A DNA stretch of 61,857 bases, counting the filler, from Candidatus Woesearchaeota archaeon (GTDB lineage: Archaea; Nanobdellota; Nanobdellia; Woesearchaeales; CAZJJJ01), in assembly GCA_046538795.1 (NCBI GenBank). It is 7 parts of 7 records of this genome, joined end to end, with 100 filler letters (N's around TTAATTAATTAA, not from the genome) between each part and the next. Parts side by side here need not be neighbours in the genome. Positions count along the whole stretch, not along the records: positions 45,940 to 53,861 come from JBKHIF010000058.1; 6 more parts are not named here. One strand, given 5' to 3'. A program made the position numbers. Shown piece after piece: positions 48,001-51,000 of the stretch. Position 1 is the stretch's first letter, and each line of letters begins with the position of its first letter.

Positions 48001-51000
48001 TTGTACCTTTTTTTTATATCAGGAAGGATCTTCAAAAAATTTCTTATTATATTTTTCTTGATTCCAGGATTTTCTGATTCTTTCCTGTTTATGAAATCCC
48101 TTACAAAATTTCGATATGATTTATGTGCATATGGACATTCGACAAACTTGTCCTGGAATCCTTTGAGTGTCGAATATATCTTTATCTCTTTTTCTGTAAG
48201 AAAATATAAAGGTTTCACTCTTCTTGTAAATTTTTCTGATCTTTCAAGCCCTGTAACAGGACCCAGCCTTGATGAAATCTCAAGGTTTCCTCTAAGTATG
48301 TTCATCATTATGGACTGCACTTCATCATCAAGATTATGACCCAGGACAACAACATCATAGTTTTTTGAATACTTGTTTATCATAAACCGTCTTATAATGC
48401 CGCAAAAAGTGCATGGATTAAGCTCTTTGTTTTTCTTTAGAACTGAATCAAGAGTGTTTCCAAATTCTTCTTTGAATGATTTTATGACAAGTCTGATCTT
48501 ATGCTCTTTGCAAAAGTTCACAAGATCCTGTCTTGAAAATTCCCTGTATCCATAGATACCCTCATCGATAAGCAAAGCATCGACATTCTTGAAATGCTTA
48601 TTTACATTATATAATGCTGTGAGTGAGTCCTTTCCTCCTGATGCCGCAACAGCAATTCTGTCTTTTTTTTTGATAAGCTTATAATCTTTTATGGTTTTGA
48701 ATATCATATATTCTGCATATTCTATGAATTTCTCTTTAGAAACCTTATTTTTTGACAAAAGATTCTTTTCCATGGCATAAAAAAATTTTCTGTAATATAA
48801 ATAATTTTAGTAGAATCAGATAACAATGATGATTTTTTTAATCAACCTCCAGAGATCACAGAAAGTATCTTTATATCATCTGAATCATTAAGATCATAAT
48901 CATCAAAAACAATCTCATCATTGCAGGAAACTATTACATCTTCAGGAACAATACCTAACTTTTTCAGAAGATCTTTTACGCTTCCTGAAAAAGTTATTTT
49001 ATTTTCTTTATCTTCTTTTTCTATATAGATTTTCATTTTGGATCCTTATTTGATTTCGTCTAATTTATTGCTTATCTCTTTTTTATCCATGAAAATGAGC
49101 GGTGAAAAATTTACAAGAACAGTATCCAGATTTTTTTTATCTTCAAGCGTATGCCCTGTTACTATGGCATTTATCTTAAATCTTTTCTTTAGGTCATCCA
49201 GATCATCAAACTTATTGATCCTTTTTAGATCAAGTATTTCAGGAGAATATTTTTGGAGAATTGCCATTTGTTTTTCATGGTCTTTTTTGTCTTTTGCAAA
49301 AGGTATTATCTTGCATCCTCTTTTCATCATCATCCAGGATGCAAGAACAGATTTTTCATCTTCTATCAATGCAAAGAGCGCTCCTTCAACACCATAAGGA
49401 AGACCAGCATGTGCCCTTATTTTGTGATCTGATAAATATGCATTTTCATCTATTATCTCTATCATAAGTTCATAGTCAGGATCTTTAAGCCTTACTTTTT
49501 TTCCTGATTTTTCATGCACAAATTTTCCTATTTCATTTTCAACTTCGGGAGATAATTTTCTGAATTTTTTGTTAAGGCGCTGGCAGCTTATTCTGAACGA
49601 ATCTTTTTCTTTCATGTTAATTATGAATTTTTGAGACATTTTTTTGATTTTTTCCATCTCGAGATCGGCCTTCACAGCCCTGCTGTAAGAAGATATGCCA
49701 AAAACTTTTGTAAGATCCACTTCATCTTTTGACTCAAATATTACCCTTCCTCTGGGTCGTTTCACATTTTTTATAACTTTTTTCTGAAAATATGCCTGCC
49801 TCTTTATATTATCAATAAGCTTTCTTTCAAAAAAAGACCTGTTCTTTTTTTTGAGCGCAATCTCAGAATACCTTACAATGTATGAATCAAATTTTATTTC
49901 CATCATCATGTTCAAGAAAAATGCGCTTATTTTATTTTTTTGTTTTTTTCTTTCTGGTTTTTTTTTGATATGCTTTTATTCCTGCTGTTTCTTTTTATTT
50001 CAGAAATAGTATATATGAAATTGATTATTGCAAGCGCAGATGCAAAAAGATTTAGTCCAACAAAGACAGGATCAGTTATCGCGATGCTGTAGAAAAGAAG
50101 CATTAGAGAGCCCAACATATATATTGATATGAACCTTATTTCAAGCCCTGTTGATTTTGTCTTTATTGTCCTTATAGTTTCAGGAATCCATGAGATGCCC
50201 AAAAGCAGCGCTCCGAGTATGCCCAAAATCCTGTCTATCATAAATCATCTTATGAACTACTCATTTAATAGTCTTTGGTATTTTGGAAAATCTAGATTTT
50301 CAAAATGTAGTGTTTTCGAGGATAAAACTCTCTTTAAAAAGAAAGGATTTATAAATAGACCCTGATTATATCCTTTATAAAGCCTTATAAATGGTTATAA
50401 ATGGGGGTTAGAAAATGGCTGAGAAAAATATTGAAGTTGTAAACATTGTTGTTTCTACATCTCTTGAGCATGACATACCGCTTGAGAAAATGGCAGCTAC
50501 ACTTTCAAACACAGAATACAATCCAGAACAGTTTCCAGGCCTTGTAATAAGAATAAAAGACCCAAAGACATCTGCACTTATATTCAGTTCAGGAAAGGTC
50601 GTATGCACAGGTGCAAGATCACTTGACAAGGTTGAAGAATCAATAAAGAAGATTATAGAAAGTCTTGAGAAGATAGGTATAAAAATAACTATAAAACCTG
50701 AGATAACTATCCAAAACATTGTTGCATCAGGAAGTGTCGGAATGGATCTAAATCTGAACACGCTTGCACTTAAGCTTGAAAATACAGAATATGAACCTGA
50801 ACAGTTCCCTGGTCTTGTATACAAGCTAAATGCTGCAAAGGCTACATTCCTTCTTTTCAGCAACGGAAAAATCGTATGTACAGGAACCAAGTCAGAAGAT
50901 GAAGTTCACTCTGCATTAGATATGCTTATCGATAACCTAAAAAACCTTAAGTGAGGCTTTCTTATTTTTTTTTATTTCAAAATATTTCTTTGGTATTCTA

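What a model noticed while it worked through the whole genome (the two positions that open the first line are those of the whole stretch)
49046..49909. Split 4-thiouridine synthase: a dead tRNA-binding ThiI subunit and a separate catalytic-only subunit
ThiI/TtuI, normally a homodimer, is divided between two unlinked genes: g0660 (ferredoxin-like + THUMP tRNA-binding domains + a PP-loop domain that lost its active site) and g0065 (C5:13148-13759, 203 aa, catalytic PP-loop domain only). They likely form a heterodimer, and this form is common in Woesearchaeales.
Evidence so far: g0660 and relatives replace SGGxDS by IEDxxS and lack QVASQT and the catalytic C terminus; g0065 keeps SSGIDS, CxxC and QVASQT but has no THUMP. 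Of 61 genomes, 11 have full-length ThiI (380-420 aa) and 16, this one included, a whole ~200-aa catalytic-only form. 13 of the 15 relatives with the short form carry the 250-330-aa dead partner, often beside ThiS and TtuA; in the 11 full-length genomes THUMP lies in the ThiI frame. Complex prediction 0.83 against best control 0.18 (mark reached by 116 of 157 solved and 2 of 215 mismatched pairs; runs agree 98%, partner pLDDT >=86; call 99). Paper searches showed no such split in listings.
(Added by a program. Inside this text positions count along the whole contig: they may not be those of the stretch shown here. "Call 12" and the like, gene names such as g00115 and contig names such as C1 are that model's own, and its searches are not shown. 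The text may have been shortened before it was handed on; [...] marks where a part breaks off. The agent that wrote the report below was given it as the finding of a first reader that could run no searches.)

Follow-up and report, generated by a model that had tools for sequence, protein, structure and literature searches.

The report
Two-piece archaeal tRNA thiouridine synthase
In many archaea the enzyme that puts sulfur on uridine 8 of tRNA appears to be built from two separate genes, one that only grips the tRNA and one that only does the chemistry, which would give a job to a protein whose crystal structure has had no confirmed function since 2005.

Summary
Confirmed. Window 49046-49909 encodes ferredoxin-like + THUMP domains and a shrunken PP-loop domain without active site; it belongs to the family of the orphan structure PH1313 (1VBK). 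The genome's only intact ThiI catalytic domain is a separate 203-aa gene. In 151 genomes of the order, 37 of 39 whole catalytic-only genes come with the partner, and 0 of 37 full-length genomes have it. Added here: the genome encoding PH1313 itself has only a catalytic-only ThiI; Thermococcales show an intermediate (full-length copy lacking the third cluster cysteine beside a catalytic-only gene); the halves are adjacent or fused in some genomes; and TK0366, whose disruption is reported second-hand to abolish s4U8, is the THUMP-less 191-aa protein. Complex model 0.82, best control 0.35, but like solved homodimers. Binding and activity are untested; the knockout paper could not be read. This scan noted the split before on other genomes. 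No paper describing it was found. New variant of a known enzyme.

The parts
49046..49909 (-). g0660: 287-aa PH1313-type ThiI-like protein, proposed tRNA-binding subunit
   Evidence: ORF; best PDB match 1VBK by sequence and fold, TM 0.87
49682..49882 (-). N-terminal ferredoxin-like domain (residues 10-76)
   Evidence: Pfam ThiI_fer E 2.6e-13; R13, E16, K20, N23, R24, F27, R55 conserved in 90-100% of 37 relatives
49430..49657 (-). THUMP domain (residues 85-160), binds the tRNA 3'-CCA end in ThiI
   Evidence: Pfam THUMP E 1.5e-12; role from PMC4041423 passages
49049..49408 (-). Linker and shrunken, inactive PP-loop domain (residues 168-287): PP-loop, CxxC segment, QVASQT and everything after the GT(Y/F) motif are missing
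   Evidence: Profile alignment to the catalytic family, probability 96.5, gaps at exactly these places; 0 of 36 relatives keep S.G.DS or ASQT
49349..49366 (-). IEDEKS (182-187) in place of the SGGxDS ATP-binding loop; one residue shorter
   Evidence: Alignment to 4KR6 and 1VBK; spacer 18 versus 19 residues
49313..49333 (-). MMMKRGC (193-199), predicted partner-binding face
   Evidence: Interface list; R197 97%, G198 100% conserved
49085..49114 (-). Residues 266-275 (the LRPL strand), predicted partner-binding face
   Evidence: Interface list; P270 invariant
48842..49036 (-). ThiS/SAMP-like sulfur carrier ending in GG; neighbour, probably serves the TtuA/NcsA enzyme
   Evidence: Pfam ThiS, NCBIfam
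47895..48773 (-). TtuA/NcsA-like tRNA 2-thiolase; neighbour, not required by the model
   Evidence: NCBIfam TIGR00269 over cut-off; present in 130 of 151 genomes
47275..47898 (-). RNase P subunit p30; marks the ancestral locus. (The catalytic subunit g0065 lies outside the window, at G000:C5:13148-13759 +.)
   Evidence: Pfam RNase_P_p30; neighbourhoods

Best explanation
The two genes encode one tRNA uridine-8 4-thiouridine synthase (ThiI/TtuI) with divided labour. [quoted passage not shown] After a duplication each copy could drop the half it did not need. g0660 keeps the tRNA grip and a stripped PP-loop domain that serves only as the docking face (anatomy shown, role inferred). g0065 keeps ATP site, QVASQT and CxxC + C, so it should adenylate U8 and insert sulfur from a [4Fe-4S]-bound sulfide as in M. 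maripaludis TtuI (motifs shown, chemistry inferred; the genome has SufB but no cysteine desulfurase was found). A 1:1 heterodimer binding one tRNA is the simplest form (inferred).
For: Co-occurrence in 151 genomes: 37 of 39 whole catalytic-only genomes have a separate partner gene (one only as a 49-aa stub at a contig end); the two without it also lack its usual neighbours Rpp30 and TtuA, as expected for an assembly gap; 0 of 37 full-length genomes have a dead copy; 1 of 41 dead copies has no catalytic gene found. 32 of 34 other archaeal genomes picked by a dead-type DNA pattern have a catalytic domain, THUMP-less in 29 of the 30 fetched. Thermococcales: 11 of 11 dead-type genomes have the catalytic-only gene and 7 of them no full-length ThiI. 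Adjacent genes in G083, G159, G167, G225; in-frame fusion of dead and live halves in G170, with 6 of 15 listed cluster members of the fused length. Dead-domain residues at the modelled interface are conserved 0.67 against 0.38 elsewhere. The THUMP-less BAD84555 is TK0366 by accession offset, and a preprint states that disrupting Tk0366 removed s4U8. Complex model 0.82, best of 3 controls 0.35; mark reached by 116 of 157 solved and 2 of 215 mismatched pairs; runs agree at least 98%, partner pLDDT at least 86.
Against: No binding or activity was measured. The complex pass can come from likeness to solved ThiI homodimers, and homodimers of either half were not modelled; PH1313 crystallised as a homodimer. 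The knockout is known only from a citing preprint; the primary paper could not be read, and the tag-to-accession link is by offset from four other genes. Interface residues include buried core residues, which inflates their conservation. The dead gene sits beside TtuA or ThiS in 22 of 36 loci but beside its proposed partner in few. P. furiosus has the pair and also a full-length, active TtuI, so the pair is not always the only route. Related genomes are not independent samples.
Confidence: 0.8

Rival explanations
1. The two proteins are paralogues with separate jobs: the catalytic-only protein works alone (on tRNA or on a small molecule; NCBI names many of them QueC) and the dead protein is a tRNA chaperone or a homodimer of other use.
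For: Databases name the short form '7-cyano-7-deazaguanine synthase', 'ThiI-related' or hypothetical. The genes are usually unlinked. PH1313 forms a homodimer in the crystal.
Against: QueC model score 36 against cut-off 150; fold TM 0.91 to ThiI against 0.55 to QueC. Separate jobs do not predict exclusion from 37 of 37 full-length genomes, a fusion, or retention of the dimer face.
Confidence: 0.08
2. The pair does assemble, but not as a simple s4U8 heterodimer: another stoichiometry, an added sulfur carrier, or another target such as U9 or a subset of tRNAs.
For: Some Thermococcales keep both the pair and a three-cysteine full-length TtuI. 13 of 38 catalytic-only proteins lack CxxC. One catalytic-only gene has a MoaD-like domain in frame before it.
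Against: The reported loss on Tk0366 disruption is of s4U at position 8; in this genome and many others the pair is the only ThiI.
Confidence: 0.08
3. The dead protein is a tRNA-binding adaptor for the neighbouring TtuA/NcsA 2-thiolase and ThiS carrier, not for the ThiI catalytic domain.
For: TtuA or ThiS lies beside the dead gene in 22 of 36 loci, against 2 of 32 full-length and 2 of 38 catalytic-only loci (flanks of about 0.5-2.4 kb).
Against: TtuA/NcsA is in 130 of 151 genomes, 93 of them without the dead gene. The full-length genes that branch nearest the catalytic-only clade (G053, G081) sit beside Rpp30 or TtuA too, so the neighbourhood is inherited. In the Thermococcales loci listed, the neighbours differ.
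Confidence: 0.04

Closest known systems
PH1313 of Pyrococcus horikoshii (PDB 1VBK), 'ThiI-like protein' of unconfirmed activity (PMC9957541)
   Same: Same three-part build, same loss of the PP-loop and of the C-terminal part; the profile of g0660's family matches it end to end (243 bits), fold TM 0.87.
   Different: No partner is proposed in the passages read; the review suggests single roles for separate homologues. Here a partner is named: the genome that encodes this protein has a 198-aa catalytic-only ThiI and no full-length one.
ThiI/TtuI homodimer (T. maritima 4KR6/4KR7, B. anthracis 2C5S; [4Fe-4S] class of M. maripaludis and P. furiosus PF1288, PMC9825150)
   Same: All domains and catalytic motifs are present once the two genes are summed; action in trans across the dimer (PMC4041423).
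   Different: Two genes, one tRNA site and one active site per dimer; neither chain reaches the NCBIfam ThiI cut-off (142 and 180 against 264.5).
NCBIfam PRK08349 'hypothetical protein' (198 aa), including T. kodakarensis BAD84555 and P. horikoshii HII60751/BAA30905
   Same: The Thermococcales catalytic-only proteins are this family (over cut-off); g0065 is 39% identical to BAD84555.
   Different: g0065 scores below the family cut-off (173 against 251); the family has no function assigned in the library.
Active plus inactive paralogue pairs in tRNA modification: ADAT2/ADAT3, Ncs6/Ncs2 (CTU1/CTU2), Trm61/Trm6; split archaeal splicing endonucleases (all recalled; ADAT2/3 seen only in a search listing)
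   Same: A homo-oligomeric enzyme turned into catalytic plus structural or RNA-binding subunits after duplication.
   Different: Other enzyme families; here the loss is reciprocal (the live copy also drops its RNA-binding domains) and intermediate states survive in living genomes.

Membership tests
ThiI/TtuI (single-chain tRNA s4U8 synthase) | NFLD + THUMP + PP-loop domain in one chain | tested here: not met
   Domains lie on two contigs; each chain is under the TIGR00342 cut-off
ThiI/TtuI (single-chain tRNA s4U8 synthase) | PP-loop SGGxDS and QVASQT | tested here: met
   Met by g0065 (SSGIDS, QVASQT) and S.G.DS in 38 of 38 relatives; not met by g0660 or 36 of 36 of its kind
TtuI, [4Fe-4S] class | CxxC + C | tested here: met
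   g0065 C79, C82, C162; CxxC in 25 of 38 relatives, the third cysteine read by eye in all 38
TtuI, [4Fe-4S] class | Cluster binding and s4U8 formation in vitro | not testable with these tools
   Needs protein; only a second-hand knockout report for the homologue TK0366
E. coli-type ThiI | C-terminal rhodanese domain and IscS | tested here: not met
   g0065 ends after the PP-loop domain; no Aminotran_5 match in the genome
PH1313-type ThiI-like proteins | NFLD + THUMP + shortened PP-loop domain lacking the catalytic motifs | tested here: met
QueC (name given by NCBI to many catalytic-only proteins) | TIGR00364 score over cut-off; QueC-like fold closest | tested here: not met
   36 against 150.3; TM 0.55 against 0.91 for ThiI
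Heterodimeric enzyme (proposed) | Physical binding of the two chains | tested here: inconclusive
   Model passes (0.82, best control 0.35; 116 of 157 solved, 2 of 215 mismatched) but like complexes are solved

The most novel reading that the evidence does not exclude
A two-subunit TtuI is a common archaeal form, found in at least three distant lineages, and its origin can be read step by step in Thermococcales: intact gene, then full-length copy without the third cysteine plus a catalytic-only copy, then PH1313-type plus catalytic-only. T. kodakarensis TK0368/TK0366 is then an obligate heterodimer whose annotated 'ThiI' is the non-catalytic half, and the dead subunit is a swappable adaptor that can take catalytic domains of other ancestry (G030, G041, G151).
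Probability: 0.55. Interest if true: 0.82.

Novelty: new variant of a known kind. Interest (0 to 1): 0.74.

Why it matters
It proposes a function and a named partner for PH1313, solved in 2005 and still listed without confirmed activity, and for the PRK08349 family, now often labelled QueC. It predicts that in T. kodakarensis, a genetically tractable organism, the gene annotated ThiI (TK0368) needs the small neighbour TK0366, so one more deletion and a two-protein assay decide the matter. It also offers a clean case of a homodimer that works in trans turning into a heterodimer by reciprocal loss, with intermediates and a re-fusion still present in genomes.

Tried and rejected
Broken gene or assembly artefact: rejected; the shortened form is conserved in 36 relatives, and the 145 new representatives among the best 150 profile hits all lack S.G.DS and ASQT. 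A frameshifted single ThiI: rejected; the halves lie on different contigs and both hold a PP-loop-type domain. QueC identity: rejected. Several origins of the catalytic-only form in Woesearchaeales: suggested by G030 and G041, which nest among full-length proteins (SH-aLRT 100, quick tree), but one clade is not rejected (p-AU 0.245, G107 left out as a long branch); unproven. The tree of the N-terminal half was poorly resolved and gave no order of events. The related-loci search with the 37-row alignment could not run for want of a conserved stretch. The primary knockout paper (PMC6779453) is not held. Supplements of PMC12255305, PMC8643681 and PMC11344067 held no TK0366-TK0368 rows (one scanned file unread). 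The weaker PF02568 matches of 290-350 aa (profile positions 5-144) were not examined. Expression data were not sought.

Full report
OBSERVATION. The window joins seven contigs; C41 spans 45940-53861. The frame 49046-49909 (-) gives 287 aa with a ferredoxin-like domain (10-76), a THUMP domain (85-160) and a stub of the ThiI family below cut-off. A profile comparison shows that its last 120 residues are a shrunken PP-loop domain: the ATP loop is replaced (IEDEKS) and one residue shorter, and the CxxC segment, QVASQT and the whole tail with the third cysteine are gone. The genome's only full ThiI catalytic domain is C5:13148-13759, 203 aa, with SSGIDS, C79/C82, QVASQT and C162, and no THUMP in its frame. 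Its model is the ThiI catalytic domain (TM 0.91 to 4KR6). The genome has SufB and a ThiF enzyme, no cysteine desulfurase was found, and its 21 predicted tRNAs are consistent with U8 (14 directly, 7 after allowing for one extra leading base).

WHAT THE DEAD HALF IS. Its best solved match, by sequence and fold, is PH1313 (1VBK), ahead of true ThiI. Hori's 2023 review (PMC9957541; passages and section 4.1 read) calls PH1313 a ThiI-like protein lacking conserved residues, with no confirmed activity. So the dead type is known; a partner for it is not given there.

DISTRIBUTION IN THE ORDER. Of 151 genomes at least 80% complete: 37 have full-length ThiI (three cut by contig ends) and none of them a second, dead copy; 39 have a whole catalytic-only gene and 3 a partial one; 41 have the dead gene; 71 have none of these, among them the one genome of the same family. 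37 of the 39 have the partner (G050 only as a 49-aa stub; G045 found by hand), and 3 of 3 partial ones do. The two exceptions, G042 and G143, also lack Rpp30 and TtuA, the usual neighbours. One dead gene (G067, 86% complete) has no catalytic gene found. These counts include unpublished G105 (split) and G124 (full-length), which were left out of the motif tables and trees. Of the proteins extracted (32 full, 36 dead, 38 catalytic-only), all 38 short ones keep S.G.DS and, read by eye, the third cysteine, 25 keep CxxC, and none of the 36 dead ones keeps S.G.DS or ASQT. In G083 the two genes overlap head to tail. Kin are not independent, so no p-value is given.

BEYOND THE ORDER. A pattern for the dead-type spacing found 34 genomes, mostly Thermoplasmata and Methanomassiliicoccales, three Thermococcus, two Woesearchaeota. 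32 of 34 have a ThiI catalytic domain (includes unpublished G182); of 30 fetched, 29 lack the N-terminal domains. The thirtieth, in G170, is one frame of ferredoxin-like + THUMP + dead domain + live domain, 551 aa if one TAG is read as pyrrolysine; the genome has pyrrolysyl-tRNA synthetase. Six of 15 listed members of its cluster have the 510-aa annotated length, two with NCBI records, so the fusion recurs. This sample tests one direction only.

THERMOCOCCALES (71 genomes; 25 weak rows unlisted). 55 have a full-length 'type A' gene of about 381 aa, 11 have a PH1313-type gene instead, 3 have only another full-length type (B), 2 look cut by contig ends. A whole catalytic-only gene is in 64 of 71 (one with a stop in the match), usually just downstream of type A. 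In 18 of 19 type A proteins fetched, Ile or Val replaces the third cysteine; the exception (L202) is from a genome with no catalytic-only gene. Most type A proteins end in a cysteine that might substitute, and C348A in M. maripaludis lowered s4U only moderately in vivo (PMC9825150, introduction read), so type A may not be wholly inactive. All 11 dead-type genomes have the short gene; 7 have no full-length ThiI. Locus L222 encodes a protein identical to 1VBK; that genome's only catalytic domain is the 198-aa L223. In G159, G167 and G225 dead and short genes are adjacent. The PfTtuI studied in vitro (WP_011012432.1) is type B, and P. furiosus also has records for a dead (AAL81611) and a short (AAL81959) protein: a point against the pair being indispensable everywhere.

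AN EXISTING KNOCKOUT. A 2026 preprint (10.64898/2026.08.09.743744; passages read) states that s4U8 of T. kodakarensis tRNA-Trp disappeared on disruption of 'thiI; Tk0366', citing Hirata 2019, which I could not read. NCBI lists BAD84557 as the 381-aa ThiI, BAD84556 as a DUF998 membrane protein and BAD84555 as a 191-aa 'ThiI-related protein'. Four published pairs of tag and accession give one offset, 84189 (PMC12442378 and PMC4215014, passages), so BAD84555 is TK0366 and BAD84557 is TK0368. If the citation is right, a THUMP-less protein, 39% identical to g0065, is needed for s4U8 in a cell whose type A ThiI lacks the third cysteine. It lies downstream of TK0368, so a polar effect on that gene is unlikely (inference).

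MECHANISM. In the T. maritima structure the tRNA is held by the ferredoxin-like and THUMP domains of one subunit and U8 reaches the active site of the other; the interface is mainly the PP-loop domains (PMC4041423, passages). That is the arrangement a reciprocal loss would keep. The complex model puts g0660 residues 168-170, 193-199, 247-248 and 266-275 against the matching elements of g0065: score 0.82, best of 3 controls 0.35, a mark reached by 116 of 157 solved and 2 of 215 mismatched pairs, runs agreeing at least 98%, partner pLDDT at least 86. Like homodimers are solved, so this shows likeness, not binding. More telling, the few residues still conserved in the dead domain fall largely on this face (mean 0.67 for 23 interface positions, 0.38 for 97 others), though buried residues contribute. 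Shown: anatomy, motifs, co-occurrence, adjacency, fusion. Inferred: binding, 1:1 stoichiometry, cluster, product in this organism.

RIVALS. Adaptor for TtuA: the neighbourhood is real (22 of 36) but TtuA/NcsA is in 130 of 151 genomes, 93 without the dead gene. Separate functions or QueC: not supported. Several origins: suggested, not shown.

NOVELTY. Ten full-text searches (two of them for accession data) listed no paper on a two-gene ThiI. Passages of PMC2948915, PMC5372739 and PMC12255305 did not describe it. Subscription papers, among them Hirata 2019, Liu 2012 and Sugahara 2007, were not seen and may touch on it; the alignment in the supplement of PMC9825150 is a picture and preprint supplements are closed. 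This scan noted the split, and the link to PH1313, on several other genomes; those notes are unchecked and were read after I had stated the same reading. Verdict: a new variant of a known enzyme, well supported by genomics, directly testable; interest 0.74.

Noticed in passing
L170:1291-2946 (-) (G170): Dead and live ThiI halves fused in one frame that contains an in-frame TAG at codon 38, probably pyrrolysine; public records start after it (510 aa). The genome also has separate dead and short genes.
   Followed up: yes
L189:1237-2169 (+) (G172): A MoaD/SAMP-like domain ending VSGG runs in frame into a catalytic-only ThiI domain that lacks CxxC: a possible fused or processed sulfur carrier.
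   Followed up: partly
L147:3484-4977 (-) (G172): A ThiI-like protein without PP-loop that still keeps a CxxC and the full C-terminal part: a less decayed dead form.
   Followed up: no
L035 (G030), L067 (G041), L166 (G151): Catalytic-only proteins with the sequence marks of the full-length, CxxC-less class, in genomes that have a dead partner: possible replacement of the catalytic subunit.
   Followed up: partly
L190-L209, L230 (Thermococcales): Type A ThiI lacks the third cluster cysteine but most end in a C-terminal cysteine; a DUF998 membrane gene usually lies between it and the short gene.
   Followed up: partly
L100, L101 (G089, G092): Full-length ThiI of 481 and 469 aa with about 100 extra C-terminal residues that match no Pfam family at E 0.001.
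   Followed up: no
L104:2299-4274 (G045): The dead gene lies directly behind a cysteine-desulfurase-like gene and ahead of TtuA.
   Followed up: no
L236 (G196): Type B full-length TtuI lies between a ThiF/E1-like gene and a SufC-like gene (named by eye from the translations).
   Followed up: no
window 60975-61805 (+): A 276-aa Lys/Ala-rich, histone-H1-like open frame.
   Followed up: no
window 45999-46989: CBS-domain gene and aIF-2 beta gene on opposite strands next to the Rpp30 end of the locus; TBP gene at 50415-50954.
   Followed up: no
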